From: an uncultured Phycisphaerales bacterium
GTDB lineage: Bacteria > Planctomycetota > Phycisphaerae > Tepidisphaerales > Tepidisphaeraceae
Direction: 5' to 3'
DNA length: 64,000 nucleotides
NCBI GenBank assembly: GCA_963758525.1
Contig: CAVWVQ010000003.1
Span: forward strand, 4,480,001-4,544,000
The position numbers were made by a program, and so were the translations under genes. Positions 16,396 through 40,605 of the stretch are shown piece by piece. Within the stretch, counting starts at the first letter, position 1; each line of letters starts with the position of its first letter. The notes under the pieces were generated by a model that did no database searches, was not told where the DNA came from, and was given only the letters and a program-made list of their open reading frames with translations.

Positions 16396-16498
16396 CTCCC
16401 TGCGCGAGGTGATCGTACTTTCAGCGCAGGCCGCAAACAATCAACTCTGATCGGCTGTGCGCAATCCCGCCCGGTCCGGAGATCCGGGTAATGCAGAA

Positions 16499-19800: not shown

Positions 19801-19916
19801 ATCACATCGCCATCGGGCTGCTCAGCGCGATCTCAAGGCGCATGATTGAGGCTGACGAACGCCGATTTGCGGTTCCGCAGTCAAGCTCGGCGCGGCCCGC
19901 GCCGTCATCGCAGTAG
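16805..19916 (+). CDS. ABC exporter (TMD plus NBD with a large insertion) fused to a C-terminal cyclic-nucleotide-binding domain; frameshift at ~18790
   Basis: TM region; Walker A GPAGCGKT; then LSGGQRQKV, ILLMDE and SHRL about 300 aa later; cNMP motifs GEVLFRRGDSG and FGELAL...RTLTARA. Confidence 0.85.
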
Positions 19917-20056: not shown

Positions 20057-20082
20057 TGTAAGGGTTAGACAACCCCTCCGTA
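20057..20082 (+). promoter_or_regulatory. Putative ECF-sigma promoter TGTAAGG-N15-CGTA (copy 1)
   Basis: Same motif and spacing at 20939, 36300 and 36461; CGT-type -10 is typical of ECF promoters. Confidence 0.7.
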
Positions 20083-20083
20083 A

Positions 20084-20140
20084 CACCGGGTGAGAAGCAG
20101 ATCGCTTCTCACGCTGAAGGAAACAGCGAACAGTTTCCAA
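20084..20140 (+). promoter_or_regulatory. Conserved structured 5' leader with two hairpins (copy 1)
   Basis: CACCGG GTGAGAAGC-AGATC-GCTTCTCAC ... GGAAAC-AGCGAACA-GTTTCC; homologues at 20966 and 36488. Confidence 0.65.
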
Positions 20141-20166
20141 AAGACACGGTGCCAGGGAGCGAAATC

Positions 20167-20439
20167 ATGTTTACCAGCCTGCACAATCGAATCACGAAAA
20201 TTCTGGTCGTCGCCATCGGACCGGCCTGCCTCGGCCTGCTGCTGATGAGCCACAGGTTTGCAACAGTGGACGCGCAAGTCGACAGCTTCCAGGACAGCGG
20301 ATCGGCCAACAGCGTGGCCGCTTCCGAAAGCGCCGCCAACGATGACGGCCCGGGACTTGGCGGCGGGTATGCCTCGATCGATCCCGGCCCCATCGCTCTC
20401 GATGGTCCCGGCGGCAGCACCCCGTATCTCATCTTTTAA
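20167..20439 (+). CDS. Small secreted precursor-like peptide 1 (90 aa) with DDGPGLGGGY and DGPGG cores
   Basis: RBS GGGAG; signal-like N-terminus MFTSLHNRITKILVVAIGPACLGLLL; homologous to 21067..21459; own promoter and terminator. Confidence 0.8.
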   Translation: MFTSLHNRITKILVVAIGPACLGLLLMSHRFATVDAQVDSFQDSGSANSVAASESAANDDGPGLGGGYASIDPGPIALDGPGGSTPYLIF

Positions 20440-20494
20440 GTGGGTGCCGAGAAGCGGATGACCCAGCAACTCAACAATCCAACAACGTCGCCAT

Positions 20495-20528
20495 ACACAC
20501 CACTCCGCTCTGGCGGAGTGGTGTGTTT
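20495..20528 (+). terminator. Hairpin terminator after peptide 1
   Basis: ACACACCACTCCGC-TCTG-GCGGAGTGGTGTGT then TT; core shared with the hairpin after peptide 2. Confidence 0.65.
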
Positions 20529-20647
20529 GCGCATCACCAACAATCGGCGATACGAATCGGCGGGTCCAACATCCAAACACGCGGTCGCTTATTTGACACG
20601 CTGGACCATGTCCTGGGTGCGGGAGACTTTCGGCAGGCTCTCTTTTC

Positions 20648-20778
20648 CCCTCCCCTGGTACTCCGAGGGAGGGTTAGGGTGGGGGCCCGGCTGTGTAAGG
20701 GCGCGGAGAGCCGATGGAGCGCTTGCGTACAACACAGCCCCCACCCCAGCCCTCCCCCGGAGTACCAGGGGAGGGGGA
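20648..20778. repeat. Inverted pair of CCCTC/GGAGTACC REP-like repeats
   Basis: CCCTCCCCTGGTACTCCGAGGGAGGG...CCCTCCCCCGGAGTACCAGGGGAGGG. Confidence 0.75.
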
Positions 20779-20938
20779 AAGACCAGCGTTGCTGAAAGTG
20801 TCACGCACCCTTGTCTTCCCCACGTCCTTTCGAGCAGAAAGAGAGATTGCCGCGACGAAACTCAAAAAATGCAAAAAAACACCCTTGATCCCGAAGCGGC
20901 AAGCCGGGGAACCCGCTCCGGAATTTCTTGAATTGATC

Positions 20939-21020
20939 TGTAAGGCTTGGTGATCGGCCGCGTAGCACCGGGTGAGAAGCAGATCGCTTCCGACGCCCAC
21001 GGAAACGGCGAAAAGTTTCC
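20939..21020 (+). promoter_or_regulatory. ECF-type promoter TGTAAGG-N15-CGTA plus conserved two-hairpin leader (copy 2)
   Basis: TGTAAGG CTTGGTGATCGGCCG CGTA GCACCGGGTGAGAAGCAGATCGCTTCC...GGAAACGGCGAAAAGTTTCC. Confidence 0.7.
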
Positions 21021-21066
21021 AGCAATCGAACGGGTTCTTCAAACCCGAAATACCAAGGAGCCTCTC

Positions 21067-21459
21067 ATGTTTTCCATCCTGAGCAATCGCATCCATCGCG
21101 TTTTGGCCGCTGCCGTCGTACCGGCCGGCCTCGGACTGGTTCTGGTGGGCAACGGTTTCGCGCAGGCCCATTCGCAACTCGACGCTTTCCACGCTGACGG
21201 CCCCGGCGGTTCGGGCTACTGCCTGACAGCACATCTCGCCGCCGACGACGATGGCCCCGGCCTCGGCGGCGGGTATGCGTCGCTCGTTCGCAAGCCCCCG
21301 GTTGCCCGTGATGACGATGGCCCGGGTCTGGGCGGCGGATATGCCGCTTCCCTCCGTTTGAGCCATGAGATCGTGGCGGACAGCGGTCCCGGCAACGACG
21401 GTTACGGCAAGCCTATGTCCGACGGTCCCGGGAGCAACGTGCCATACGCTCTTGCTTGA
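21067..21459 (+). CDS. Small secreted multi-core precursor-like peptide 2 (130 aa) with five (D/S)GPG...Y repeats
   Basis: RBS AAGGAG; signal peptide ending AQA; cores DGPGGSGY, DDDGPGLGGGY x2, DSGPGNDGY and DGPGSNVPY. Confidence 0.85.
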   Translation: MFSILSNRIHRVLAAAVVPAGLGLVLVGNGFAQAHSQLDAFHADGPGGSGYCLTAHLAADDDGPGLGGGYASLVRKPPVARDDDGPGLGGGYAASLRLSHEIVADSGPGNDGYGKPMSDGPGSNVPYALA

Positions 21460-21492
21460 ACGACCTTCGCCAAGCTTCAATCTCGCAGTCAC

Positions 21493-21522
21493 AGACAACT
21501 CCGCCCTCGGCGGAGTTGTCTT
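21493..21522 (+). terminator. Hairpin terminator after peptide 2
   Basis: AGACAACTCCGCC-CTC-GGCGGAGTTGTCT. Confidence 0.65.
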
Positions 21523-21675
21523 GATGCGCGACTGCGTCATCCCTCGTTCAAGCGCAGCCGATGAGCGCACAGAAGCCGCGGATGTACATCCGCGGCTCCC
21601 GTAATGCCTGAGCGGGTGATCCAACGCGGATCGGCGTCGGCGACGCCGACTACATGAGAATCGGCCGCTGATGGT

Positions 21676-24600
21676 TTAGTTCGGATTGCCGAGATAAATG
21701 AACGGGGCCCAGAAGAACGGCTCGGGATATTCTTGGCGGAGCTGCTTTCGCGCGGCGGTGAACGCGGCAAGCTTCGATGGACAACCGGGAGACTGCAGAT
21801 TGCGATAGAAATCCTCCATCAGCCTGGCGGTGCTCTCATCCTGCACTTCCCACTCACTGGCGACGACCGCCGGACAACCGGCGTACCAGAAGCCCCAGGG
21901 AAGGCCGAAGACGCCTTCATCGGTGACGGCGTTGCCTTTGCCGCTATCAATTCCCTGAGAATCGCAGGCGCTGAGCACCACCAGCTCCGTGCCGGAAAGC
22001 TTGCCGCCCCAATGATCAAACAAATCCTCCAGCGTCAGCAGCCCGGTATCCTGTGCGGTGACCACCCGCGGCTGGGTCAGGATAATGCTGCTGTAAATCG
22101 CGTCCTGTCCGGACCTGGCCAGGCCGTGCGTGGCCAGGTGAAGATACCGCGTCCCGACTGCGGCCTCCGCCAGTCGCTTTGCGGTGGCGTCTTCGCCCAA
22201 GAGGACCAGGACCGAATCGTCGTGCCCGGGGGAATATCCGCGGCCCGTGAGCTTCTCGTAGATTCCCATGATTTCTTTGCGCGTTCCGGGAAGCGGCGAG
22301 AGCGCGCCATAGCCGCCGAGGCCGGCATTTCTGGTCTGGCCTGACGGCGCTGCAGACCGACCCAGGTCTCTGGCTTCCCGCTGCAGCACCGGGTCGCCCA
22401 ACAGAACGGCCTGGTGCGTGTAATGCTTCGGCGCGCTGGAGGCCGGTGGCGCGCAGAGCTTGAGCAGCGCGGTGGCGGAAGCGCCGTAACAAATCGCCGG
22501 CCCCTGATCGAGCCAGTAACGGCAATCTTTTGCATCGGGGCTGGCGGGGTTCTGGACGATCAAGGTTTCCAGCGGCAATCCGTTCATCCCCGCATCGGGA
22601 ACGACATAAATCAACTGGTCGTCCTGGATCTGTTGCCAGATCGACGAAGGCATGAGCCGGGACCAGAGTTCGTACCCCTTGCGGGTCATGTCGTCAGCCG
22701 GGGCTTTGGTTGCACCGTCTTCGACGAGCTTTGCCCCGCGCGTGAATGTCTGGTTGTGCGCAACCACCGACTGCTGATAGTCCACGATGCGCCGCTCCAG
22801 GGCCGTGCCGGACAACACGGTTTTGCCATCCGGCTCGGTCAGCAGCGCGCCGGTGATGGGCTGGCCGGCGGGAGGGATCAGGATGACCATGATGTCGCGA
22901 TCGGTAATCGAATACATCAGCAGATGCTGGCGCGGCTTCAGAAGCGCCTGCATCTGCAACGCCGATGCAGGCTCTGCAAACGTCGTTGCGCCGGCGACAT
23001 TGAACAATCGGCGATGCGCGGCGGCGTAGCGCGCGCAGGCGTCATCCAGCTTCGGCTGCAGCAGATCGATCTGAGAATTGCCATCGTCATTGTTCAAGGA
23101 GCGCGCGAAATTGATCTGCGAGGTGAGCTCGCGAACCTGTTCATCGGCATCGGATGTCGCCTTACCGGCCTGCTCGAGCTGCGCCAGCAGTTGCGTATCG
23201 TGGGCTTCCCGCGCCTGCGCTTCGAGCGGCGCCAGCAGATCTCCGCCGTTGCGGCGTTCGGCGCGCTCCAGGACATCCAGAAGACTTCGAGCCCGTCCGC
23301 GATCGAGGTACTCCGCAGCCCGGTCCGGATGCCCCAGCATCAGCTCCACCCGCACGATCGCCACGGGTGCGTCGCAGTCGTCCTGCGCATCGATGAACTT
23401 CATCCGATCCTGGTCGTCGCCACCCAGAATCGCCCGGGCCCGCTCGAAAGCGCCGATCGATTTCTCGTACGCAGCCTCGGCGTCTGCGAGTTGGTTCAGC
23501 GCCAGCAGGCAATCTCCCAGATTCGAGCAGTAGCGATAGAGATCGGGATCGCTCAGACGCTCGGCAAGTGCCACAGCCTTCTGGAACATCGGCAGCGCCT
23601 CCTGCTTTTTTCCCAGCGCGGAGAGACACGAGCCGAGTTTTGCCATGTTCCACGCGACAATCGGATGGTCGCGGCCCTTATAGATGCGCTCCTGCATTTG
23701 GAGCGCTTCGCGGCAGAAGGGAAGCGCCTCGCCAGGATGGTCCAGCGACATGAGACATCCGCCAAGCAGAGCGAGATTGATCGCAATATCCGGACGATCC
23801 TGATTCCCGCTCAACCGGCGGCGCATCGCCAATGCCGCCTGATACATCGGCAGCGCCTCGGCCGATCGCCCCAGATTATCCAGCGAGAGCGCCACGTTGC
23901 TCGTGGCAGTCGCAACATCCGGATGGTCCTGGTCCTTGTAGAGGCGCTTCCACATTTCCAGCGCCGACTGCTGGGTCGACAGCGCGTCGGCGAAGCGGCC
24001 GAGAGACGTGAAACAGGAAGCCTCGTTGTTGAGGGACTCGGCGATGTCGGGGTGATCCATGCCGTTGTACATCCGCCGTCTCATTTCCAGTGCCGCTTGA
24101 TGATCGGGCAACGCCTCGGCGCAGCGTCCCAAATCGTCGAGGCAACTGGCGATGTTCGCCAGAGCGGTCGCCACGTCCGGGGAGTCCTGACCCTTGTGGA
24201 TGCGGTCGAGCATATCGTGCGACAACTGGAAGTCGGCCAGCGCTTCCTGATGGCGGCCCAGAAATGCCAGGCAGGTCGCCAGATCGTTCAACGATGAGGC
24301 AACATCGGTATCGTCCTTCCCCTGGTAGATCCGCCGGCGCATCTCCAGCGCCGCCTGAAACATCGGCAGCGCTTCGTTGCCGCGTCCCAGCGACTCCATG
24401 CACCCAGCGACATTGTCCATCACCACGGCGAGGTCGGCGCTGTCCTGGTTCTTGAAAATCCGGCGAGTCGATTCCAGTGCAGACTGATATACAACCAGCG
24501 CATCGGAGTCGCGTCCCAGCGCGCTGAGACACTTGGCGAGGTTGTTCATGCTCGCCACTACATCGATCTGATCGTCCTGCTGATAGATGCGCCGGCGCAT

Positions 24601-25697
24601 CTCCAGCGTCGCCTGGAAGACCTTGAGCGCTTCGTCGTAGCGCCCAGCGCGAAGAGGCAGAACGCAACGCTATTCTGGGTCGTGGCCACATCGGCGTCGT
24701 CCGCCCCTTTGTTCAGTCGCTGCTTCATCTGTAGTGCGGCCTGGAGGTTGGTCAGCGCATCCGCCGGCCGGCCCAGATCCTGCAGGCACCCGCCCAGGTT
24801 GCAGTAGGCCTCGGCGACGTCCGCGTCGTCCTGCCCCTTGTGCATCCGCCCGCGCATTTCCAAAGCCTTCTGGTAGAGCGGCAAGGCGTCCTCGTTACGG
24901 TCGAGGGCCGCCAGGCGCCGGGCGACGCTGGTCATGCTCCAGGCGACGTCTGGCGAATCCTCACCCTTTGCCAGGCGCTGGCGCATCTCCAGCGCGGCTT
25001 GGTCGAGCGGTAATGCCTCGTCGTTGCGGCCCAGATTCGCCAGGCAATTGGCCAGATTTGCCATCGCGGTCGCCAGATCCTCGTCGTCCTCGTTCTTGTG
25101 AAGGCGCAGGCAGATCTCGGTTGCCCGTTTGAACTTCGGAAGGGCGTCCGCATCGCGACCAAGTTGTGCCAGCGCAAATCCCTCGCCCGTGAGGCAGGCG
25201 GCGGCTTCGGTTGTTTCACCGGTTCCCTGTGCTTTCAGATAGATCTCGGATGCCGACTGATATTTCGCCAGGGCATCTTCCGGTTTGCCGGCAGACCGGT
25301 CGTCCAACGCGGCTGAGAGAAGTTCGTTGGCATGCGCAAGCGGGTCCGAAGCCGGAGCCGAGGCTGGCGCGGTGGTCGATTGATCTGCTAAAGCGATCGA
25401 CGGATTCCATGCCGCGACGCAGATGCACGCGATCGTGCAAAGGAGTCCGCTTACGACTGACCTGCGGAGGCGATTCGCGGAACCGCCTCGGGTCCCTTCT
25501 CCCGGTACTCCCGGAGAGGGATAGGGTGAGGGTGTTTTCGAGCACCGGGGACGCTCAGAATTCCAAATCACCCTCACCCCAACCCTCTCCCGGGGTACCG
25601 GGAGAGGGGGCTGGAAGGCGACTCGCTGCGATGGGGCGTGATACCTGCACGACCTCGCAAGGTCAGCAACTGCCGCAATGTCTTTCCAGCGAATCAT
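21676..25697 (-). CDS. TPR-CHAT caspase-like protease C (signal peptide, many kinesin-light-chain-type TPRs, CHAT domain, no PDZ); frameshift at ~24640; start uncertain
   Basis: Repeats such as DHPDIAESLNN...QAALEMRRR; catalytic HLATHG and LSACDS; C-terminal PFFWAPFIYLG. Confidence 0.85.
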
Positions 25698-25781
25698 GAT
25701 TATCAGTAACGCGGAATTCATCCCGTTGTTTTTATGCCGCAACATTTCGCCACGTCGCGCGGGATGAATCCCGCGCCACGC

Positions 25782-26526
25782 GGCGATCTCAATTCGGATC
25801 ACCCAGATAGATGAACGGCGCCCAGAAAAACGGCTCGGGGTAATCCAGCTTCAACTGCTTGCGGGCGGCGGTGAACGCCGAGAGCTTGTTGGTTCCCGGC
25901 GCGGCCCGCAGATCGGCGTAAAACTTTTGCATCAACTCGGCAGTGCTCGCATCCTGCACTTCCCACAAACTGGCGACCACCGCGGGACTGCCGGCGTACA
26001 TGAATCCCCAGGGCAATCCGAAGACGCCTTCGCCGCCGCGGGCGTTGGTTCCCTGGGCGTCGAGCCCCTGCGAATCGCAGGCGCTGAGCACCACGAGTTC
26101 GGTTCCGTCCAACCGGCCCCACCAGTGATCGAACAAATCCTGCAGCGTGAGCAGGCCGGTATCCTGCGGCGTGATGACCAGCGGTTGGCTCAAGACGACG
26201 CTGCTGTAGATCGCGTTGGCGCCCGGCTCCACCAGGCCGTGGGTGGCCAGGTGGAGGTAACGCGTTCCCTTTGCAGCCTCGGCGAGGCGCTGACCGGTGG
26301 CGTCTTCGCCCAGGAGCACCATCACCGGATCGTCGGCGTGCTGCGCGTAGGCCTTGCCGGTGAGCACCTGGTAAATCCCCTGCACTTCCCGGCGGGTGCC
26401 GGGAAGGGGAGTCAGCGCGCCGTAGCGCGTGAGGCTCGCGTCGCGCAGCGCGACCGAACTCGGCTCTGGTTTTTGCGGAGACGGCGTCAGTTGCGCCGCC
26501 AACTCCGGAGTCATGTCTTTCAGCTC
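25782..26526. repeat. ~745-bp near-identical direct repeat (3' end of CHAT-B), partner at 29772-30516
   Basis: Offset 3990 bp; roughly a dozen visible substitutions, nearly all synonymous. Confidence 0.9.
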
Positions 26527-29500
26527 CACGCCCGGCGCTGTGTCCAGCGAGAGTTCGCGCTCGACCATCTGTCCATCGAGCCAGAACTTGAGCCTGGGAG
26601 TTTGACTGAGCTTTCCGTGAAAGCGCAGCAGTTCGAGTTTATCCACTGCGCTGTCGAACGAATCCTTGGAGACCACATTCACCGGGCCATACGCGACGAC
26701 AATTGCGCCGATCCGCAGGCCGATCGAGGCGGCGGTCGATCCGGGCTGCACGCTGGTGACCATCGCGCCCGATGATGGCGCGGGCACGCGCTGCTGATCG
26801 GCCGGATTGCGCTGCAACACGGGATCGCCCAGCAGCACCGCCTCGCGGGCGTAGGTTTTCTGGCCGCGATCCGGCTCCTGACGACGAAGCTCCAGCAGCG
26901 CCGCCGCTGACGGTCCGTAGCAAAGAAGCGGGCCGGCGTCGAGCCAGTAGGTATTGTCTTTGGCGCTGGAAGCGTGCATAGCGGAAGTTTGCGGCCTTTG
27001 GACGACCAGCATTTCTATCGGCAGGCCGCTCATTGCCGAGTCCGGAACCACGTAAACAATCTGGTCGTCCTTGATCTGGTTCCAGACTTGCTCGGGCATC
27101 AACTCGCGGAAGAGTTCATATCCCTCGGCTGGGATGTCGGATTGGGGGCGAGTTGCAGGCTCGGTCTGCGCGATCCTGAGGCCGCGCACCGAATCCAGAC
27201 CATGCTGCACCACGGCGCGGCGGTAGTTGCCGATCAACCCACCAATCCGGCTGCCCGATAGCGGCGTCCTCCCATCTGATTGGACCAGGGACATACCAAT
27301 GATCGGCTGACCGGAAGGGGGAACGACCAGGAGGACCGCGTCATAACGTGTAATCGAATACATCAGAAGATGCTGATGCGGCTGCAGCAGAGATTGAATC
27401 TGCACCGAAGTGGTTGCCTCGGTGAACGTCGTCCGACCGGCAAGGTTGAATTTACGGCGATGGGCGTCGGCGTATTGCTGGCATGCCAGGTTCAACTGCG
27501 GCTGGAGCTGTTTGATTTGCGCGAGTCCTTCGTCACTGTTGAGCGATCGCGCGTGATTGATCTGCGAAGTCAACTGCCGAACCTGGTCGTCGGCAACATT
27601 CAAGGCGGTTCTGGCTTCGGCGATGCGCTGCAATTCGCCAGTATCGTTGGCGAGCCTGGCTTTCTTCTCCAGAGGATCGAGCAGATCGCCGTTTGTGAGC
27701 CGCTCTCCCCGTTCGAGGATATCGAGCAGGCTCTTGGCGCGTCCGCGATCCAGGTATTCCGCCGCGGAGTCCGCGTGCCCCAATGCGAGCTGCGCAGGAC
27801 CATCCCGCTGAACGGGTCTATGTCGCGATTGGCGCTCATGAAACCCATGCGGTCCTGATCGTCGCCCCCCAGCGTCGTTCTGGCTTGTTCCAAGGCGTCG
27901 ATCGATTCCTCGTACGCCTTGGCGGCGCCCGCGAAATCGTGCGAGTAGAAGAGCATATCTCCCAGAACGCAGCAGTCGCGGAACAGATCAGGGCTCCCGA
28001 GTCGCTCGGCCATCTGAACGCAGGCGCGGGACAGCGGAATTGCCTCCTTCGTGCGCCGCAGGATCGCCAGCTCATACGCGACGTCGTTCATGCTCGAGAC
28101 AATTTCGGGATGGTCCTGATCGCCATAGATGCGACGCCGCATTTCCAGCGCCGCCTGATGAAACGGCAGCGCGTCTGCGAAGCGGCCGAGATCACACAGA
28201 CAACTTCCAACGGAATTGAAGCTGTCAGCCAACTCCGGGTGATTCTGGCCTTTGTAGATGCGCCCGCGCATCTGAAACGCGGCCAGATGCATCGGCAGCG
28301 CCTGTGCCGAACGGCCCAGGCTGTCGAGGCACGCCGCGACGCTGTCCATGCTCTCGGCGACATCGGAGGAATCCTTCCCTTCCGCAAGCCGCTGCCGCAT
28401 CCGCAGGGCGGCCTGGAGCATCGGCAGCGATTCAGCCTCGCGTCCCAGGGCGCCGATGCACTGCGCGACGTTGCTCATGTCCGTCGCCAGATCCCGATGA
28501 TCTTTGCCGTTCTGCAGGCGCTGCTCCATTTGCATCGCGGCTTCGTACATCGGAAGCGCTTCGGCGCTGCGACCCAGGTTATCCAGGCAGGAGGCCAGGT
28601 CATTGAGGCTTGCGGCGATATCGAACGCGTCACGCCCTCCGAAAGTCCGCCGCCTCATGTCCAGAACGGCGCGGAACATCGGCAGCGCCTCGGCGCTGCG
28701 CCCAGATCGTCAAGACAGCCGGCAACGTCCTCCTCGGTCTGCGCCACATCCCAAAAATCCACGCCTTTGTGAAGGCGTCTGCGCATTTCAAGCTCCGCCT
28801 GATACACAGGCAGAGCCTCAGCGCTGCGGCCCAGATTCTTCAAGCAGGTGGCAACATCGTCCTGGCTCTGCGCCAGATCGAATTGGTCGCGACCGCCACA
28901 AAGACGGCGTTTCATTTCAAACGCGTCCTGGAACGGCTTGAGCGCCTCGTCATATCGCTCCAGCGCGGTCAGACACTTTCCAAGCGTCTGGAATTCGTTG
29001 GCGATCGAAGCGTCATCCTTTCCCTTGAGAATGCGCTGCTGCATCGCCACGCCGTCCTGGCAATACTGCAAAGCTTCCTCGTCGCGGTTCAGACTGTGGA
29101 GGCACCAGCCGAAGTTGCTCATGGCAAGTCCGAACTCCAGGCGGTCCTGCTTTTGGTAGAGCCGCTGGCACATCTCCAATGCCGCCGCGAATCTTGGCAG
29201 CGACTCATCGAGCCGGTTCAATCGCGCGAGGCACCATGCCTCGCCGGTCAGACAGCGGGACACGTCAGGGTTGTCCTGCTTGCCATAGACCTTCTGATAG
29301 AGAGCGAGCGCTGACTGATCCTCATTGAACGCGCTATCGAACTTGCCCATCGTCCACGCCGCGTTGGCCGATGCCCAATGGGCGCGGGCCTGCGCGAGTG
29401 CTGCGTCGCGGTCGGTTGGGGCGGGCTGGGTTGATGAAGCGGAGGTTCCCTCATCTGCTGATGCAATCGCCGGCAGCGGCAACTGGATGCCGATGCAGGC

Positions 29501-29728
29501 GATCATGCAAAGGAGCACGCTTGCGAGAAATTGTTGAACTCTGTTTAGCCGCGCCGCGCAACGAAGCGTGTCCAGCGGCGCAGTCTGACGGGCGCCGTTC
29601 GGAGCCAAGCCCTCCCCCGGAGTACCAGTGGACGGAGAAAGAGTTGTCGGGGCCGTAGTAGTTACCAGCGCCCGAAAGATCGGGCACGCATGCGGCGTAA
29701 TTCCGTGCTTGAATGACGTAATCTTCAT
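25789..29728 (-). CDS. TPR-CHAT caspase-like protease B with PDZ-like insertion; frameshifts at ~28700 and ~27795; start uncertain
   Basis: ORFs 28655..29782, 27600..28679 and 25789..27783. PDZ-like GAMVTSVQPGSTAASIGLRIGAIVVAY; HLATHG and LSACDS. Confidence 0.85.
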
Positions 29729-29778
29729 CCAATGCTCATGGAACGAATGGTTCCCAATTCGCCAGCGCGTTGGCGATC

Positions 29779-32700
29779 TCAATTCGGATCACCCAGATAG
29801 ATGAACGGCGCCCAGAAAAACGGCTCGGGGTAATCCAGCTTCAACTGCTTGCGGGCGGCGGTGAACGCCGAGAGCTTGTTGGTTCCCGGCGCTGCCCGCA
29901 GATCGGCGTAAAACTTTTGCATCAGCTCGGCAGTGCTCGCATCCTGCACTTCCCACAAACTGGCGACCACCGCGGGGCTGCCGGCGTACATGAATCCCCA
30001 GGGCAATCCGAAGACGCCTTCGCCGCCGCGGGCGTTGGTTCCCTGGGCGTCGAGCCCCTGCGAATCGCAGGCGCTGAGCACCACGAGCTCGGTTCCATCC
30101 AACCGGCCCCACCAGTGATCGAACAAATCCTGCAGCGTGAGCAGGCCGGTATCCTGCGGAGTGATGACCAGCGGCTGACTCAAGACGACGCTGCTGTAGA
30201 TCGCGTTGGCGCCCGGCTCCACCAGGCCGTGGGTGGCCAGGTGGAGGTAACGCGTTCCCTTTGCAGCCTCGGCGAGGCGCTGGCCGGTGGCGTCTTCGCC
30301 CAGGAGCACCATCACCGGATCGTCGGCGTGCTGCGCGTAGGCCTTGCCGGTGAGCACCTGGTAAATCCCCTGCACTTCCCGGCGGGTGCCGGGAAGGGGA
30401 GTCAGCGCGCCGTAGCGCGTGAGGCTCGCATCGCGCAGCGCGACCGAACTCGGCTCTGGTTTTTGCGGAGACGGCGTCAGTTGCGCCGCCAACTCCGGAC
30501 TCATGTCCTTCAGCTCGACTCCCGGGCTCGACTCAATCGGCAGATCACGCTCCAGCATCTGCCCCTCGAGCCAGAACTTCAGCTTTGGAGTTTGGTCGAG
30601 CTTTCCGTGAAAATGAAGCAGCGCGAGCTTGTCAACTGCCGTATCGAACTGGTCCTTCGAGCCAACTTCGATCGACCCGTAGCCCACGATCACTGCGCCG
30701 CGCGGAGTCCGATTCCCTCCCCGGTCGAACCCGCCTGCACGCGCGTTACCAGCGCGCCGGACTGCGGCGCCGGCAGACGCGGTCGGGCATCATCATTCCG
30801 CTGCAGGACAGGATCGCCGAGCAACACCGCTTCGTGCGCGTAGGTTCTTCCCTCCCGATTGGTTTCCTGTCTGCGCAGCTCGAGCAATGCGGCCGCGGAC
30901 GGGCCGTAGCAGAGCAGCGGGCCGTGGTCGAGCCAGTAAACGTTATCCCTGGCGTCCGCGGTTCTCGGCTTTTGCGTGATCAGCATCTCCAGCGGCAGCC
31001 CGCTCATCGACGCGTCGGGCACCACGTACACCAGGGAGTCGCGCTGAATCTCCCGCCAGACGGCGTCGGGCAAGAGCTGGCGGAACAGTTGATACCCTTC
31101 ATCGGAGGTGTCTTGCGTCGGATGCGTTGTCGCTTCGGTCTCGGCCAATCGCACTCCGCGAATCAGATTCATTCCGCGCTGCACGACCGTCCTGCGATAA
31201 CTTTGAATCAGTCGCTGAAGCGATTCTCCCGAAAGGCGCGTCTTGCCGTCGGCTTCCGTCAGATACATTCCGCTGATCGTCCCTCCCGGCGGCGGAATCA
31301 GCAGCACGACGGCGCTTCGAGGGGTGATCGAATACATCAGCAGATGCTGCCCCGGCTGCACGAGAGATTGAATCTGAAGCGACGTCGTTGCCTCGGTAAA
31401 TGTCGTCCTTCCGGCGAGGTTGAATTCCTGCCGGTGAGCGTTGGCATACTCCTGCCAGGCGGTGTTCAGTTTCGGCTGCAACTCTCTGATATCTTGCAGC
31501 CCCTGGGCGTTATTCATCGCGCGGGCATGGTTAATGCGCGAGGTGAGCTGCCGCACCTGATCCTCCGCCGCCGCCAGTGCCGTTCGATCGCCGAGGATCA
31601 GCTTCAGTTGCTGCTTGTCGTTCGTAAGCCTGGCCTTCTTCTCCAGGGGATCGAGCAGATCGCCATCGGAAAGGCGTTCCCCGCGCTCGAGAATATCGAG
31701 CAGGCTCTTGGCTCGTCCGCGATCGAGATACTCCGCGGCGGTGTCCGCGTGCCCCAGTTCGAGTTGCGCCCGGACCATGCCGCCAAACGGATCGCGTGAC
31801 TGCATGGTGGAACTCATGAATCCCATCCGGTCCTGATCGTCGCCGCCCATGGTCGCGCGGAACTGCTCGAGCGAATCGATCGATTCCCCGAATTCTTTGG
31901 CCGCTTCGGCTGCGTGACCGGTCATCAGGAGGATGACTCCCAGATCGTTGCAGTAGTTGAATAAGTCAGGACTTCTGAGCCGCTCGGCCATCGCATTCGC
32001 ACCGCGGCCCATCGCCAGGGCTTCCTCGCCGCGACTCACCCGCATCAGTTCCACCGCCAGTTGATCCATGCACGCTGCCGTTGCCGGATGGTCGCGGCCC
32101 TTCCAGATGCGCTGATCCATTTCCAGCGCATCGTGGAACAGCGGAAGCGCTTCGGCGTGACGATTCAAAGCGCTGAGGCATTCCGCAGCCTGAAGCAGCC
32201 CGCCTGCGGTAGCGGGATTGTCCTGGTCATGATACATACGCCGGCTCATCGCCAGTGCCTCCTGATACATCCCAAGCGCCTCCAAAGCGCGGTCCAGACT
32301 TTGGAGGCAATAGGCGACGTTCTGCAGGTTCATCGCAATAAACGGATGATCCTGATTTTTGAAGATCCTCCGATGCATTTGCAAAGCCGCCTGGAGATAT
32401 CGCAACGCCTCGGCGCGACGGCCCAGTGGGTGCAGGCACGCGGCGAGGTTATTCATGTTGTTGGCGACGTCCAGGTTGTCGTAGCCCTTGTGAATTCGCT
32501 GGTTCATCGCGACGGCCATCTGCAACATCGGCAGCGCCTGTGCAAGCCGGCCGAGTTTCGTGAATTCGAACCCAACCGTGTTGAGGCTGTTTGCAATCGC
32601 AGGATTGTCATGTGCGCCGTACAGACGGACCCTCATCTCCAGCGCAGCCATGTAATAGGGGAGCGCCTGCATGCTGCGTCCCGCTCCGTCGAGATAAATG

Positions 32701-33263
32701 CCCAGCGTATTCTCAATAACGGCGACGTTGGGATCGTCACGATTGTTGGAGAGCCTTCGCTCGATGCTCAAGGCGGTCCGCCCGGCGACCAACGCGTCGT
32801 CGCAACGACCCAGGGCAAACAGAGCTTTCGAAAGATTCATGAACATCAGGCCCATCTCCAAGCTGTCCTTGCCTTTTGACAGTCGCTGCTCCATCTCGCA
32901 AGCCGCCTGCAGGTTCGGCAGCGCCTCCGGGTCGCGGCCGGCAGCATGCAGATCGCATCCGTACGTGTGCAGTGCGTTGGCCAGCACCTCCTGATCCTGA
33001 TCTTGGTACACCCGCCGATACAGCACGATCGCCGCCTTGAACGTCGGAAGCGCCAGCTCCATCCGATTGGTGGAGGCAAAAGTCAACGCTTGCCGGTAGA
33101 GGAAATTGGCGGCGGAAAGGTTCCATCGATCGCGAGCTTGCGCAGACTTCGCGTCGTCAGTCGTCGCCGCAGCCGCTTGGGAGGGAATCGTTGTGGGAAG
33201 CGTGGCGGGAGACGCTTGGGCGGGAAGTCCAAATAGAAGGAACGCAATGACTGCCCCGAGCAT
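29779..33263 (-). CDS. TPR-CHAT caspase-like protease A with PDZ-like insertion; frameshift at ~30695 (alternative start 33476)
   Basis: Signal-like MLGAVIAFLLFGLPAQA; TPRs; GALVTRVQAGSTGEGIGLR PDZ-like segment; HLATHG and LSACDS. Confidence 0.85.
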
Positions 33264-33310
33264 GAAGCGGCGTTCTTTCCTCTGCCCCTTGTACTGGTGC
33301 CAGAGAAGAA

Positions 33311-33360
33311 GAAATGGCCAAGGCCCAATGGCCAACAAAATCCCAAGCCCCAATGACCAA
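33311..33360. repeat. CCAA(T/G)G heptamer-type repeat, duplicated at 36181-36229
   Basis: AAATGGCCAAGGCCCAATGGCCAACAAAATCCCAAGCCCCAATGACCAA in both places, upstream of CHAT-A and of the ECF gene. Confidence 0.75.
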
Positions 33361-33514
33361 TGCGAGACCCGCGCGCGGTCCCTCCGTCCCCTCCCCACAA
33401 CTCCCCCGCTGGGTCGAAGCACTCGCCGGCAGTGACCGATCGATGCTGATTCGGCTTGGTTGCTGAGCAGATCCATTGCGATGCTCCATGCGCAGCACGT
33501 TTCGCTTGACGTGT

Positions 33515-35249
33515 TTACTGCTGCGGATCCTGATGCGCGACTGCAATGCCGGTGAAAAAATAACCGTGATCTTTCAGCTTCTTGCTCAGGTCATCCAATG
33601 GGACCGAAACCCCCGAGCAACTGTCGGCGGTTTCGGCGCCGGGTCGCGCGATCGTTCGCCGCCGTCAAGGAAACGCGCGTGGGCACCGGCCGCGTCGACC
33701 AGCACCGCGCCGGTTGGCGGCAGTTCCGCCAGGGAACGGCTCGCGAAGAAGCTCTGCAACTGCGACTTGAGCGCATCGACGTTTTGCGGGTTGTCCAAAT
33801 CGCGGCCCGCAACCATCAGCAGAAACTCCGTCCCGGCCGGACCAGTAAGTGCGGTCGTGCGCGCCTCGCCAGGGCTGATGACATGATCGAACTGGTCGGC
33901 GCCATGCACCTGCGAGTCGGGCACGCGGAAAACCTGTCCCGCGGAACCGACCCAGAAAACCACCGCCGGCGTATCGCGCGGCACAACCCCTTCGATCTTC
34001 AGTTTCTCCCCGGTGACCAGCGGCAGATGGCCGTCAAGGCTGCTCAGCCCATCTGGCGTGATGAGTAACTGCCCGGTCGCGGGAATCGGAGCCGGCTTGG
34101 GCCACAACCACGCGGTCGCGCTCACGACCGCGACCACGGCCGCCGCCGGGATCGCGCGCCGCAGCAGTCGGCGCCGCGCCGCCGCGTGATTTACCGACTC
34201 CAGGGCCTCGGCCATCTCCCTGGCGCCGGCGAATCGATCCTGCGGCATTGCCGCCATCGCTTTAAGGGCGATCTGCTTCAATCGCGGGGAGACTTCCGCC
34301 TTCTCCAGGATGCCGCGATCAAACTGGCAACTTGCAGCACGCGCCAGCAGCTCGTCCCGCGCCGCCCCGGCAAATGGAGGTGTCCCCGTAATCAGGAAAT
34401 AAAGGACCGCGCCAAGGGCAAAGACGTCGCTGAGGCCCGTGATTGCCGTGAACTCAGATCGGGCCTGCTCGGGAGACATGTACTGGATCGTGCCGCCCAG
34501 GGGCTGGCGCTGGCCGTCGGTCCAGGCGCCGTTCAGCCGGGCCATTCCGAAGTCGATCAGCTTCGGCTCTCCGTGTTCATCGATCACGATGTTCTGCGGC
34601 TTCACATCCTGGTGCACGATGCCGAACCGATGCGCCGCTTCCAGCGCCCGCGCCACCTTTGCAGTCAAAGCGGCGATCTCCGGCGAGGTGAGACGAATGC
34701 GATCGCGGACGTACTGATCCACGCCCGCCCCCGCACGTACTCCATGACCAGAAACGGTCGGCGTTCAAAAAAGTCCAGATCGTAGATCCGCCCGATGTTT
34801 GCATGCTTCAACTGGACCAGGATGCGTCCCTCGCCGATCAAACGATCGTTCTTGGCAAAATCCCCGTCAGCCGTTGTTCGTGAAGAGAGTTTCAGCACGA
34901 CTTGCTCGTCGAGCGTGGGATGGACGGCGCGGTAGACGCTCGCCTGGCCGCCGCTGCCCAGCGCGCCGATGACGAGATATTTGCCGATCTTCTCGGGAGT
35001 CGAAGAGGGAGGCGTCGCCGCCGGTGAATCTGAAGGGACCTGCGTGATCACTGGAGTTTCGGTTGGCAGGACGTGCCCGGGCTCGGCGGGTATGAATGCT
35101 TTCTGCAGTCCCCGCACTTCCAGCCGCAGCCCGCTGATTTTGCGGATGCAGCGCCCGCATTCGAGCAGATGTGATTCCAATTCAGCCGACGGCTCGTCGC
35201 CGGTGGCGACCGCCAGCAATTCCTCTTCGCTTGGACACACCGTGATCAT
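33515..35249 (-). CDS. Membrane Ser/Thr protein kinase with N-terminal ZAS-like HxxxCxxC motif and extracytoplasmic C-terminal domain; frameshifts at ~34725 and ~33640
   Basis: CPSEEEL...HLLECGRC; LGSGGQASVY, VVLK, HQDVKPQN, DFGMA, GTIQYMSPEQ and SDVFALG; TM AIPAAAVVAVVSATAWLW. The shifted frame ends ...LSKKLKDHGYFFTGIAVAHQDPQQ*. Confidence 0.9.
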
Positions 35250-35299
35250 GGCAGGATCGGTTTACAGCCCGTTCCAGAACCTTAAGGTATTTCGTTACC

Positions 35300-35408
35300 G
35301 TTTAGCCGCGCCGCGCAGCGAAGCGTCCAGCGGCACTTTCCGCGAGTTGGACGCAAGCCGTCAAATACGCGCTCTTGGACGCGCTTCGCTGCGCGGCGCG
35401 GCTAAACA
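35300..35408. repeat. GTTTAGCCGCGCCGCG REP-like inverted pair between sigma and kinase genes
   Basis: GTTTAGCCGCGCCGCGCAGCGAAGCG...CGCTTCGCTGCGCGGCGCGGCTAAAC; a single copy lies at ~29543-29580. Confidence 0.75.
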
Positions 35409-35425
35409 GGTTCTGAAACCGCCTC

Positions 35426-36025
35426 TTATGCCAGCTCTTCGTCGTGCCGTGCACACAACTCGCGGATCTTCTCAAGTACGCGGTGCGCATTAGTATAGAC
35501 CGCGTTCACGCTCAAGCCTAATTCCTCGGCCACCTCCGGCCCGGAACGGCCGCGCAGCGTGCGTTGCTCGAAGCAGGCCCACGTCTTAGGTTCGAACGAT
35601 TCCTGACTTTTTTTCATCGCAAACTGCATGATTTGTTCGTGATGCAGTTGCTCCCACTCCCGGCTCAGTTCCTCGGTGACTGACGGAACAATCGGCCCGG
35701 TGAAGTTGCTCTCCTGCCCAAACGCCGGCGGCTGGTTTTGCCGCCGTCGCGCCCAATCGCGGATGGCGTTGATCGTGACTTCAAACAGCCAGGTTCGAAA
35801 GCGGCCCCGCTGACGATCCAAGTCGAACTTTGCCATCGCCGGGCGAAGCTTGTTCAGAAAGATGTCCTGCACCAGGTCCTCGGCGTCGTGCTCGCGCACA
35901 TCATGTTTGCGGACATACCGGATCAGCAGCGGGTGGTAGATCTCGTAGAACTCACCCCAGCTTTGTTTGTCGTTGGGGTCGTGGAGGCCTCGAAGCAGCG
36001 ACGATCTGGTCTGGTCGGCGTCCAT
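35426..36025 (-). CDS. ECF sigma-70 factor of the planctomycete kinase-associated type (199 aa)
   Basis: TRSSLL...SWGEFYEIYHPLL, DAEDLVQDIF, RGRFRTWL and region 4 EVAEELGLSVNAVY; directly upstream of an STK gene. Confidence 0.92.
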   Translation of the reverse strand: MDADQTRSSLLRGLHDPNDKQSWGEFYEIYHPLLIRYVRKHDVREHDAEDLVQDIFLNKLRPAMAKFDLDRQRGRFRTWLFEVTINAIRDWARRRQNQPPAFGQESNFTGPIVPSVTEELSREWEQLHHEQIMQFAMKKSQESFEPKTWACFEQRTLRGRSGPEVAEELGLSVNAVYTNAHRVLEKIRELCARHDEELA

Positions 36026-36299
36026 TTTCGGTGCAAGTTTATCCCGTCCTCCGGTCGGCCGTCCATCAAATTGCGATTGTCCGCAAGGCGGGGGGGCCGT
36101 GGCGCTCTCGGCGAGCGGATTTCCCCCTCCCCTGGTACTCGGGGGGAGGGCTGGCGTGGGCGGTGGGGGCAGAGACTCAGAAATGTCCAAGGCCCAATGG
36201 CCAACAAAATCCCAAGCCGCAATGACCAAGGCGAATGAACCTTGGGCCTTGGGGTTTGGTGCGTTGTTAGCCATTGAAGCCTTAAAAATTCGCCGGCTC

Positions 36300-36325
36300 T
36301 GTAAGGGTTGTCGTGCCCTTGCGTA
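36300..36325 (+). promoter_or_regulatory. ECF-type promoter TGTAAGG-N15-CGTA (copy 3)
   Basis: TGTAAGG GTTGTCGTGCCCTTG CGTA. Confidence 0.65.
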
Positions 36326-36330
36326 CCACG

Positions 36331-36410
36331 GATGACGAGGCGAACGAGCCGCCAACGAATCAGAGTTCCGCCCCGGCATCCCTGCCCTACGTTGGGTGGG
36401 GATGCTTTTT
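36331..36410 (+). ncRNA. Candidate ~80-nt small RNA
   Basis: Starts just after promoter copy 3 and ends at the hairpin GCATCCC...GGGATGC followed by TTTTT. Confidence 0.4.
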
Positions 36411-36460
36411 GCGCATGTTTCACTCACCAGATCCAACGCCAGTTCAAAAGTTTCAAAGGC

Positions 36461-36545
36461 TGTAAGGATTCGCCTTCTCCCCCGTACCACCGGGCGAGAA
36501 GCAAACGCTTTTCACGCTAATCGGAACGGCGAACAGTTCCAAAAA
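36461..36545 (+). promoter_or_regulatory. ECF-type promoter plus conserved two-hairpin leader (copy 4)
   Basis: TGTAAGG ATTCGCCTTCTCCCC CGTA CCACCGGGCGAGAAGCAAACGCTTTTCAC...GGAACGGCGAACAGTTCC. Confidence 0.7.
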
Positions 36546-36585
36546 ACACGGGTTACTACAACCCAGCATCGTGAAGGAGTCCATC

Positions 36586-37176
36586 ATGTTTACTTTCCTC
36601 AATTGTCGTGCGACCAAAGCCATTTCCGCCGCCGTCGTCTCTTTGAACTTCGGCCTCGGGTTGGCCAGCCCGAGCTTCGGGCATGCGGTGCAATCGGCTA
36701 ACGTCGATTTTGGTCAGCCAGGGCCGGACCAGACCGGCGAGCTGACTGCCGAGACTCTCGGCGGGATGCTCCAGAGCATGCACCTTTCTATCAACCAGGT
36801 GAATGACAACGGCCAGATCTACTATCAGGTGAATATTCCCGCGCTCAAGGGAAACCCGGCCGTCGCGTTCTTCGTGGCGGTCTCCCCCAACAAGAAGTAC
36901 GTCAACATCTGGTACACCGTGGCACAGTTGGGCCAGCAGAACTCTCCGCCTGCACCGGTGCTGCTCGCGATGCTCCAGTCCAACGACAAGACGCTGCCAT
37001 CGTATCTCGGCATCGAAGGCAACTACATCGTGCTTCGCGACAACCTCGACAACAGCGGCGTCACCGCGGCCGAGCTGATGGAGCAGTTGAAGCTGTTCTA
37101 CACCGCGATCCAGCAGACCCGGCCCATCTGCGTCGCCCCCGTCGAAACCCCCGCGCCCTCCAACCCGTTCGAATGA
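36586..37176 (+). CDS. Secreted protein with a YbjN / T3SS-chaperone-like domain; signal peptide homologous to peptides 1 and 2
   Basis: RBS AAGGAG; MFTFLNCRATKAISAAVVSLNFGLGL; LLAMLQSND...YLGIEGNYIVLRDNLDNSGVTAAELMEQL resembles the YbjN fold. The fold call is tentative. Confidence 0.65.
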   Translation: MFTFLNCRATKAISAAVVSLNFGLGLASPSFGHAVQSANVDFGQPGPDQTGELTAETLGGMLQSMHLSINQVNDNGQIYYQVNIPALKGNPAVAFFVAVSPNKKYVNIWYTVAQLGQQNSPPAPVLLAMLQSNDKTLPSYLGIEGNYIVLRDNLDNSGVTAAELMEQLKLFYTAIQQTRPICVAPVETPAPSNPFE

Positions 37177-37216
37177 ACCTCGAACGTGATCGGCACGAGC
37201 GTGTGGTCAATCAGAA

Positions 37217-37251
37217 TCCCCGCCCGGAACATCGGGCGGGGATGTTCTTTC
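37217..37251 (+). terminator. Hairpin terminator
   Basis: TCCCCGCCCG-GAACAT-CGGGCGGGGA followed by TGTTCTTT. Confidence 0.6.
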
Positions 37252-39388: not shown

Positions 39389-39391
39389 ATT

Positions 39392-39898: not shown

Positions 39899-39929
39899 AG
39901 TCCCGAGTTGGACACCAACGGGAACGACT

Positions 39930-40565: not shown

Positions 40566-40605
40566 TTCTGATCGACACATTGGGAATCGGGCAGGAAGGT
40601 TTCGA

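What the first reader, a model, noticed from the sequence alone, without database searches (positions are those of the whole stretch)
20057..37251. Candidate new signalling system: ECF sigma, ZAS-Ser/Thr kinase, three secreted TPR-CHAT proteases and a co-regulated set of repeat-core secreted peptides
Seen: a minus-strand run ECF -> STK -> CHAT-A -> CHAT-B -> CHAT-C, each protease with an intact His/Cys dyad and a signal-like N-terminus. It is bracketed on both sides by plus-strand units that share a promoter motif; three of them also share a structured leader and a homologous signal peptide. Known: kinase-associated ECF sigmas occur in planctomycetes, TPR arrays bind peptides, and CHAT domains are caspase-clan proteases. 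Inference: the sigma drives export of multi-core precursors that are cut or sensed by the TPR-CHAT proteins, and the signal returns through the kinase ectodomain to the sigma. That would be a peptide autoinduction or conflict circuit. The shared cis-elements link genes 16 kb apart, which an annotation pipeline would miss.
Basis: partly seen in the sequence, partly recalled or inferred. Interest (0 to 1): 0.92.

Follow-up and report, generated by a model that had tools for sequence, protein, structure and literature searches.

The report
Repeat-peptide regulon of protease-gated sigma
A few uncultured planctomycetes carry a conserved gene set joining a sigma factor, a membrane kinase and caspase-like proteases with small, likely exported peptides built of repeated Gly-Pro-Gly...Tyr units, whose genes share one promoter-like motif and RNA-like leader, which likely forms an undescribed cell-envelope signalling loop.

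Summary
The observation largely holds. ECF sigma, zinc-finger Ser/Thr kinase and three TPR-CHAT proteases (His/Cys intact) are present. TGTAAG-N16-CGTANCAC occurs 4 times genome-wide, all here (0.014 expected). Among 141 family genomes, the sigma orthologue, the DDGPGxGGGY peptides and the two-hairpin leader occur in the same 5 genomes.

Corrections: only two ORFs are repeat peptides; the third leader unit is a YbjN/CesT-like protein. Kinase and proteases are frameshifted here, probably assembly error; most relatives' copies are intact. The sigma keeps DAED, so EcfP-type phospho-activation is unlikely. CHAT cutting the precursors into cores is unsupported: 9 of 100 cores follow Arg, and no caspase-type S1 arginines are evident.

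Best model (about 0.4): CHAT cuts a conserved R-D-P-G loop in the kinase ectodomain, the kinase's zinc finger releases the sigma, and the peptides are sigma outputs that likely feed back as uncut multivalent ligands. Relatives add lipoproteins, subtilase, C14 caspase, adenylate cyclase and a cNMP-ABC transporter. The GPG...Y motif also occurs in unrelated proteins. The scan noted similar ECF-kinase-CHAT cores on other DNA; the peptides, promoter and leader were found neither in scan notes nor in the papers searched.

The parts
14581..16400 (-). Adenylate/guanylate cyclase with GAF-like and weak FHA-like N-terminal region; 2 frameshifts; start approximate
   Evidence: Pfam Guanylate_cyc 1.5e-19; in the relative G819 FHA E 0.077, below cut-off; inside the locus in G847 and G819; breaks
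16805..19916 (+). ABC transporter with C-terminal cNMP-binding domain; one 1017-aa protein in relatives, 1 frameshift here
   Evidence: 76-82% orthologues beside the peptide gene in G819 and G847 and on L024
20057..20086 (+). Promoter-like site 1, TGTAAG-N16-CGTAACAC
20086..20145 (+). Two-hairpin 5' leader 1
20167..20439 (+). Repeat peptide 1, 90 aa: Sec-type signal plus 2 GPG...Y cores
20939..20968 (+). Promoter-like site 2
20968..21027 (+). Two-hairpin 5' leader 2
21067..21459 (+). Repeat peptide 2, 130 aa: signal plus 5 GPG...Y cores
21676..25802 (-). TPR-CHAT C, PDZ-less subtype; frameshift near 24646; true start probably downstream of 25802
25789..29782 (-). TPR-CHAT B with PDZ-like insert; frameshifts near 28704 and 27796; start uncertain
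   Evidence: (PDZ_6 E 1.8e-4, below cut-off)
29779..33476 (-). TPR-CHAT A with PDZ-like insert; last 238 aa identical to CHAT-B; frameshift near 30700; start uncertain
33515..35249 (-). Membrane Ser/Thr kinase: Cys...HxxxCxxC zinc finger, Hanks kinase with intact catalytic motifs, one TM helix, Ig-like DUF4384-like ectodomain with R-D-P-G loop; frameshifts near 34720 and 33644
35426..36028 (-). ECF sigma factor, intact, canonical DAED motif
36300..36329 (+). Promoter-like site 3, no leader, tandem with site 4
36461..36490 (+). Promoter-like site 4
36490..36548 (+). Two-hairpin 5' leader 3
36586..37176 (+). 196-aa protein with the peptides' signal sequence and a YbjN/CesT-like body ending NPFE; no repeat core

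Best explanation
This is a conserved ECF-kinase-TPR-CHAT locus in which the likely secreted proteases would cut an exposed Arg loop (R-D-P-G) in the kinase's outer domain, the kinase's zinc finger would then release the sigma, and the sigma would likely switch on the genes sharing the TGTAAG-N16-CGTANCAC motif, among them the repeat peptides, which likely feed back uncut as multivalent ligands. SHOWN: gene content, the cis-elements, co-occurrence across genomes, the conserved Arg loop, DAED in the sigma, protein-level conservation of the cores. INFERRED: (1) the motif is this sigma's promoter, about 0.8; (2) the kinase's zinc finger is the anti-sigma, about 0.6; (3) CHAT cuts after Arg in the kinase loop and in R[DG]-hydrophobic motifs of the co-encoded lipoprotein and subtilase linkers, about 0.5; (4) the peptides bind the TPR superhelix or the kinase ectodomain to amplify or damp the response, about 0.35.
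For: Profile concordance: sigma orthologues at 81-83% identity in G383, G819, G840, G847 plus G000, 5 of 141. The peptide is in the same 5 of 141. Leader hits of 38 bits or more occur only in those 5, with G819 not in the training set and next best 25 bits. All 10 promoter matches in the four other genomes lie in the system's loci. Related sites sit beside distant sigmas of this clade (38-41% identity) on L002 and L058. Four of 12 further kinase homologues share their longest-contig length with a peptide homologue. The ectodomain Arg is kept in at least 90% of 44 homologues as R-x-x-G, RDPG in 11 of 12 full-length close homologues. It lies in a low-confidence loop of an otherwise confident model (mean pLDDT 90.5). 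P0078 fuses kinase, this ectodomain, TPRs and CHAT in one chain. [STAV]R[DG][LIFP] is 21-fold enriched in lipoprotein and subtilase linkers, 20 in 1650 residues; the pattern was chosen after inspection. Cys...HxxxCxxC is present in 12 of 12 full-length kinases, with weak anti-sigma hits (TIGR03988 E 0.02; zf-HC2 E 0.059). DAED is intact in 5 of 5. The 20 core copies have 20 different DNA sequences. Precedent: periplasmic TPR-CHAT with proposed linker cleavage and a zinc anti-sigma domain in DdvA (PMC11506125).
Against: Nothing is shown biochemically. The separase S1 Asp position aligns to Ala here by my mapping, and known CHATs cut after Met or Leu, so Arg specificity is not established. The five genomes are 3 genera of one family and not independent. 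G841 and G842 (86% and 90% complete) hold CHATs, lipoproteins and subtilase-like genes with no sigma, kinase, peptide or promoter found, so the peptides track the sigma-kinase pair better than CHAT. GPG...Y repeats occur in unrelated architectures, including Zn-finger proteins without a signal peptide. No copy of the motif points into the sigma operon, so the sigma does not appear to autoregulate. The window's 196-aa protein lacks the Arg motif.
Confidence: 0.4

Rival explanations
1. The peptides are plain outputs of the sigma with no signalling role: an elastomer-like or matrix component, a metal binder, a modification substrate or a protease decoy.
For: The same GPG...Y motif appears in long secreted proteins, lipoproteins and Zn-finger or Lon-like proteins, with no CHAT or ECF on 6 contigs of 1.5-8.6 kb. 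The same promoter, leader and signal peptide also front unrelated cargo (131-134-aa and 76-aa proteins, YbjN-like proteins). GPGGY-type elastomeric repeats are recalled from silk proteins (from memory, not tested).
Against: The cores are fixed residue by residue while spacers and copy number (2-8) vary freely, which suits a specific binding partner. The peptide is the one cargo kept in all 5 genomes. No modifying enzyme was seen in the loci examined.
Confidence: 0.3
2. One reading: CHAT cuts the precursors into diffusible cores that act as autoinducers, and the kinase activates the sigma by phosphorylating it.
For: Signal peptide plus tandem cores preceded by Asp runs looks like a multi-core precursor. 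Nine cores follow Arg. The kinase is catalytically intact. The review leaves open that DAED-bearing groups could be phosphorylated nearby (PMC8999054 section 3.4). A subtilase and a C14 caspase in the system could process the precursors instead.
Against: DAED intact in 5 of 5. 91 of 100 cores do not follow Arg. The positions I map to caspase-3 Arg64 and Arg207 hold Glu and Gln (mapping by inference), which argues against cleavage after Asp.
Confidence: 0.15
3. Peptides or their fragments are moved by the adjacent cNMP-ABC transporter, and the main output is cAMP from the FHA-GAF cyclase downstream of the kinase.
For: Cyclase and transporter lie inside the locus next to the peptide gene in G000, G819 and G847, and the transporter also on L024.
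Against: Transporter orthologue not found in G383 (93% complete) or G840 (87%). The peptides carry Sec-type signals. The FHA hit is below cut-off. Paralogues at 41-42% exist without the system.
Confidence: 0.1
4. This genome's copy is a decaying relic: the frameshifts are real. This concerns this copy only, not the system in relatives.
For: 9 breaks in about 5,900 aligned aa inside the locus against 4 in 10,035 aa in 30 genes outside, 2 of them in the system's own satellite caspase (different method). Both same-genus genomes lack the locus.
Against: All 9 breaks are single-base-type (8 of -1, 1 of +1) with 0 in-frame stops. Seven of 9 lie within about 10 nt of GCGC (P 0.0016), as expected of motif-linked long-read errors. 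The other few-contig assembly (G847) is broken at different places, while G383, G819, G840 and G841 copies examined are intact.
Confidence: 0.15

Closest known systems
DdvA/DdvS of Myxococcus xanthus (PMC11506125; abstract, section 8 and first part of Discussion read)
   Same: ECF sigma controlled by a zinc-binding cytoplasmic domain, one TM helix and an extracytoplasmic TPR-CHAT; signal unknown; cleavage of a juxtamembrane loop is proposed
   Different: Here the TPR-CHAT is a separate, likely secreted protein in 1-3 copies per locus; a Ser/Thr kinase and an Ig-like ectodomain lie between zinc finger and periplasm; the regulon is exported peptides and proteins, not CBASS/CRISPR
ECF62 (and ECF59/61/217) kinase-associated planctomycete sigmas (PMC7826278 supplement part 15)
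   Same: Planctomycete ECF with a one-TM protein kinase at +1 bearing an N-terminal zinc finger
   Different: ECF62 kinases have WD40 ectodomains in the largest subgroups, no conserved promoter is reported, and no CHAT or peptide is mentioned; group assignment could not be run
ECF54 of Actinobacteria (PMC7826278 supplement passages; PMC8999054 passage)
   Same: ECF encoded near TPR-CHAT and a subtilase; proteolytic control proposed
   Different: Actinobacterial; no kinase; promoter GTATCAG/CTCC; no repeat peptides reported
ECF43 EcfP/PknT and EcfK/PknS (PMC8999054 section 3.4)
   Same: ECF plus transmembrane Hanks kinase
   Different: ECF43 sigmas lack DAED and need phosphorylation there; this sigma has DAED
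ECF-receptor kinase-secreted CHAT loci with a shared R-G-x-G peptide
   Same: Same three-gene core and an Arg loop in the kinase ectodomain
   Different: Here the kinase loop is RDPG while CHAT loops read RG[AVL]R and R[DN]A[SG]L, so they are not matching copies; a separate GPG...Y peptide family, promoter and leader are added

Membership tests
ECF43-type phospho-activated sigma | DAED motif replaced by a Ser/Thr motif in sigma 2.2 | tested here: not met
   DAEDLVQD in 5 of 5 orthologues; definition
ECF43-type phospho-activated sigma | Adjacent transmembrane Ser/Thr kinase | tested here: met
ECF62 | Kinase at +1, one TM helix, N-terminal zinc finger, Planctomycetes | tested here: met
   same family as a record titled Tepidisphaeraceae
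ECF62 | WD40 ectodomain (subgroups s1, s2) | tested here: not met
   Ectodomain is a 180-aa Ig-like sandwich
ECF62 | Score against the ECF62 group HMM or placement in the clade | not testable with these tools
   Group HMMs not held
ECF54 | TPR-CHAT and subtilase in the neighbourhood | tested here: met
   G819 locus; in G000 the subtilase lies about 490 kb away
ECF54 | Actinobacterial; promoter GTATCAG/CTCC | tested here: not met
DdvA-type anti-sigma | Zinc domain, TM and TPR-CHAT in one chain without kinase | tested here: not met
   Separate genes in all 5 genomes; the fusion P0078 includes a kinase
CHAT protease (PF12770) | Domain score above cut-off with His/Cys dyad | tested here: met
   E 5e-38 to 6e-43; dyads
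Separase-like Arg-specific protease | Acidic S1 residues binding P1 Arg | tested here: inconclusive
   LWEVQD aligns to LWDVTD; the Glu anchor appears kept and the helix-4 Asp aligns to Ala, by my mapping of PMC4626109 passages
DUF4384 (PF14326) | Pfam match of the ectodomain | tested here: inconclusive
   No Pfam hit; atlas neighbours at 0.88-0.89 are DUF4384 clusters, a lead only
RiPP multi-core precursor | Co-encoded modifying enzyme and leader-dependent processing | tested here: inconclusive
   No modifying enzyme seen in the loci read; Sec-type signal; no Pfam or NCBIfam hit for the peptides
Known Rfam cis-regulatory RNA | Match to a family model | tested here: not met
   No hit over the three leaders at E up to 5
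Structured RNA leader | Covariation | tested here: inconclusive
   One named pair switches GC/AU in 5 of 12 sequences, helix 1 shows only one-sided changes; RNAalifold finds 2 such pairs; sequences are related

The most novel reading that the evidence does not exclude
A bacterial protease-gated receptor kinase with its own multivalent peptide hormone: the sigma induces export of tandem D(D)GPGxGGGY peptides, which switch secreted TPR-CHAT proteases or cluster the kinase ectodomain, closing an extracellular feedback loop and firing a CHAT-subtilase-caspase cascade. The GPG...Y unit would be a widespread, unrecognised short ligand motif.
Probability: 0.25. Interest if true: 0.9.

Novelty: new variant of a known kind. 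Interest (0 to 1): 0.7.

Why it matters
The activating signal is unknown for extracytoplasmic TPR-CHAT proteases (stated for DdvA in PMC11506125). How DAED-bearing, kinase-linked planctomycete sigmas are controlled is also open (PMC8999054), and no conserved promoter is given for ECF62 in PMC7826278. This locus supplies a candidate promoter, regulon, cleavage loop and ligand in one small, reconstitutable set, so each step can be tested directly. It also defines an unannotated peptide family and a candidate cis-regulatory RNA.

Tried and rejected
(1) Complex prediction of TPR-CHAT (L016 residues 306-1264) with peptide P0003 residues 79-118 gave no answer: score 0.01, controls not folded; it counts neither way. 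The N-terminal TPRs and the kinase ectodomain were not tried as partners.
(2) Single-sequence folding of the ectodomain failed (pLDDT 37). With 44 sequences it worked, but Foldseek gave nothing at E 0.001 or better and VIA-align's best Z was 7.7 (rmsd 3.5, 127 aligned), only a common Ig-like arrangement.
(3) I first took the Asp of WEVQD for separase's S1 Asp and predicted Arg specificity; the alignment did not bear this out and I withdrew it.
(4) No sequencing runs could be obtained, so the frameshifts were judged indirectly. Names and contigs for the peptide clusters could not be looked up, so the taxa of the non-planctomycete-type motif proteins are undetermined.
(5) The leader pattern was found in no genome but G000 among 401 phylum genomes. 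The peptide profile hit 3 of 401 class genomes, one of them weak and not followed up (G031, E 1e-4). No plasmid match. The atlas gave nothing for the peptide (0.84). L019 held no core and was dropped.
(6) Rfam microRNA hits are genome-wide palindromic repeats.
(7) A first promoter scan used the wrong spacing and was redone.
(8) Literature searches without a description of this system: (GPGLGGGY, 0 papers). PMC7159879 has no CHAT mention. The 79-planctomycete paper with 30 new ECF groups is not held and could describe this sigma group. The supplement of PMC7826278 was cut when stored.

Full report
ANATOMY. The window lies on contig C3 of a 6.47-Mb, 6-contig assembly in the same family as a record titled Tepidisphaeraceae. 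On the minus strand lie an ECF sigma, a Ser/Thr kinase and three TPR-CHAT genes. All three CHATs have HLATHG and LSACD. A and B carry a PDZ-like insert (141 vs 35 residues in the C type; Pfam PDZ_6 below cut-off) and are recent duplicates, identical over the last 238 aa. The kinase has an N-terminal Cys...HxxxCxxC finger in 12 of 12 full-length homologues, intact catalytic motifs, one TM helix and a 180-aa Ig-like ectodomain with DUF4384 clusters as nearest atlas neighbours (0.89, a lead only).

FRAMESHIFTS. Kinase, CHATs, ABC transporter and cyclase carry 9 breaks: 8 of -1, 1 of +1, no in-frame stops (the first 171 reference residues of CHAT-A were not aligned). Seven of 9 lie within about 10 nt of GCGC (P 0.0016). 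Relatives G383, G819, G840 and G841 have intact copies where examined; G847, another few-contig assembly, is broken elsewhere. I read this as assembly error. Against it, break density is about four times that of 30 genes outside the locus (4 in 10,035 aa, different method), and no reads were available.

CIS-ELEMENTS. TGTAAG-N16-CGTANCAC occurs 4 times in the genome, all here, 0.014 expected. A matrix from 10 relatives' sites recovers exactly these four. In G383, G819, G840 and G847 all 10 matches lie in the system's loci; G001 has none; the reversed control pattern gave 2 matches in those 5 genomes. Five further genomes have none. Related sites flank distant sigmas of the clade on L002 and L058, which suggests this sigma reads the motif. 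All four sites point away from the sigma operon. Three are followed by a 60-nt two-hairpin leader: 88.6% of cells paired, one pair switching GC/AU in 5 of 12 sequences, no Rfam match. A model of it scores 38 bits or more only in the five system genomes, including held-out G819; 38 other genomes of 141 have weak hits of 25 bits or less.

PEPTIDES. Two window ORFs have a Sec-type signal and 2 or 5 cores of type D(D)GPGLGGGY, DGPGGSGY or DGPGSxxPY. Eighteen homologues came from the protein search and 45 proteins in all from the profile. In 24 precursors there are 100 cores, 2-8 each. Twenty core copies have 20 different DNA sequences, so this is a protein-level motif, not a DNA repeat; the lack of amino-acid changes there is built into how the copies were picked. 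No Pfam or NCBIfam family matches. The third leader unit is a YbjN/CesT-like protein, and in relatives the same promoter, leader and signal front other small cargo.

CO-OCCURRENCE. Of 141 family genomes, 5 have the sigma at 81% identity or more (2 more at 38-41%) and the same 5 have the peptide. CHAT orthologues are in those 5 plus G841 and G842, where sigma, kinase and promoter were not found (86% and 90% complete). Both same-genus genomes lack the system. Of the 17 loci carry the signal-peptide type (4 near-identical). Among them L016 has sigma, kinase and CHAT, L018 CHATs, cyclase and transporter, L023 sigma and kinase, L024 the transporter, L032 CHAT, and L025 is too short to tell. Six carry cores in other architectures with no CHAT or ECF on 1.5-8.6 kb, and 1 has no core. 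Four of 12 other kinase homologues share a longest-contig length with a peptide, indirect evidence; one pair is confirmed as G819. The genomes are kin and not independent.

WIDER SYSTEM. In G819 the order is CHAT, cyclase, cNMP-ABC, peptide, C14 caspase, S8 subtilase, lipoprotein, promoter site, sigma, kinase. G847 is similar. In G000 the lipoprotein-subtilase-caspase operon lies at C3:5.008-5.015 Mb without the promoter motif. The transporter orthologue is in 3 of the 5 genomes.

MECHANISM. The sigma keeps DAED in 5 of 5 orthologues, so it does not fit the EcfP/EcfK mechanism; the review says such groups may work differently (PMC8999054 section 3.4, read). The zinc finger offers an anti-sigma instead, as in DdvA (PMC11506125: abstract, section 8, first part of Discussion). 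The ectodomain has an Arg kept in at least 90% of 44 homologues as R-x-x-G in an exposed low-confidence loop, and one protein fuses kinase, ectodomain, TPR and CHAT. A similar R[DG]-hydrophobic motif is 21-fold enriched in lipoprotein and subtilase linkers (post hoc). These are the likeliest CHAT sites. Arg specificity is unproven: the separase helix-4 Asp maps to Ala here (PMC4626109 passages; mapping mine), and CHATs are known to cut after Met or Leu (bioRxiv 2021.06.07.447441 passages). The peptides mostly lack such sites (9 of 100), and caspase-type basic S1 residues are not evident, so I take them as uncut ligands or plain outputs. The protease-gated kinase reading was sharpened by earlier scan notes, which are unchecked AI notes and not independent evidence.

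KNOWN AND NEW. ECF plus zinc-finger kinase (ECF62), ECF near TPR-CHAT and subtilase (ECF54) (PMC7826278 passages and supplement) and periplasmic TPR-CHAT control of a sigma (DdvA) are in print. PMC13147305 was seen only as a listing and one passage. The three-gene core was noted by this scan on other DNA. The GPG...Y peptide family, this promoter and the leader were found neither in the papers searched nor in scan notes. Subscription papers, including the 79-planctomycete study, were not searchable. Verdict: a real, conserved, co-regulated module; a new variant of protease-linked ECF signalling with an undescribed peptide component; mechanism inferred. Interest 0.7.

Noticed in passing
G000:C3:5008480-5014822 (outside window): Satellite operon of the same system: two YbjN-like lipoproteins ending NPFQ, an S8 subtilase and a C14 caspase, without the promoter motif.
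   Followed up: partly
G000:C3:2428907-2432359 and C1:414089-417121: A fourth, divergent TPR-CHAT and a second cNMP-ABC paralogue (42%) with no peptide or promoter motif nearby.
   Followed up: partly
P0023-P0045; L026-L031: The DGPGxGGGY motif recurs in secreted proteins, lipoproteins, acidic proteins and Zn-finger proteins; L030:7043-8275 joins a Zn finger, over a dozen repeats and a Lon-protease-like C-terminus (recognised from memory; Pfam ChlI E 0.003). Possibly a widespread unrecognised motif.
   Followed up: partly
P0078: 1581-aa fusion of kinase, the same ectodomain, TPRs and CHAT.
   Followed up: no
L016:8803-9198, L016 about 9470-9700, L018:3087-3491: Other small cargo (131-134 aa beta-rich, 76 aa) behind the same promoter, leader and signal peptide; no family match above cut-off.
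   Followed up: partly
L018:7194-9632, L082:9925-14283, L084, L086: Conserved large membrane or secreted proteins ending NDPNR[FY]VQIPLR convergent on CHAT genes in genus g18; a transglutaminase-like gene lies in the G847 locus.
   Followed up: no
window 20641-20782, 25494-25609, 29541-29643, 35300-35407, 36120-36240: Several families of palindromic REP-like repeats (13-244 copies of the probes genome-wide) lie between genes and in the 5' regions of the CHAT and sigma genes, obscuring start codons.
   Followed up: partly
window 37804-41382: Mla-type ABC operon (ATPase, permease, MCE, MlaC-like, MlaA-like), recognised from the translations, not scanned.
   Followed up: no
L058:1120-2189: A distant sigma of the clade (38%) has a promoter-like site in front of a secreted trypsin-like protein.
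   Followed up: no
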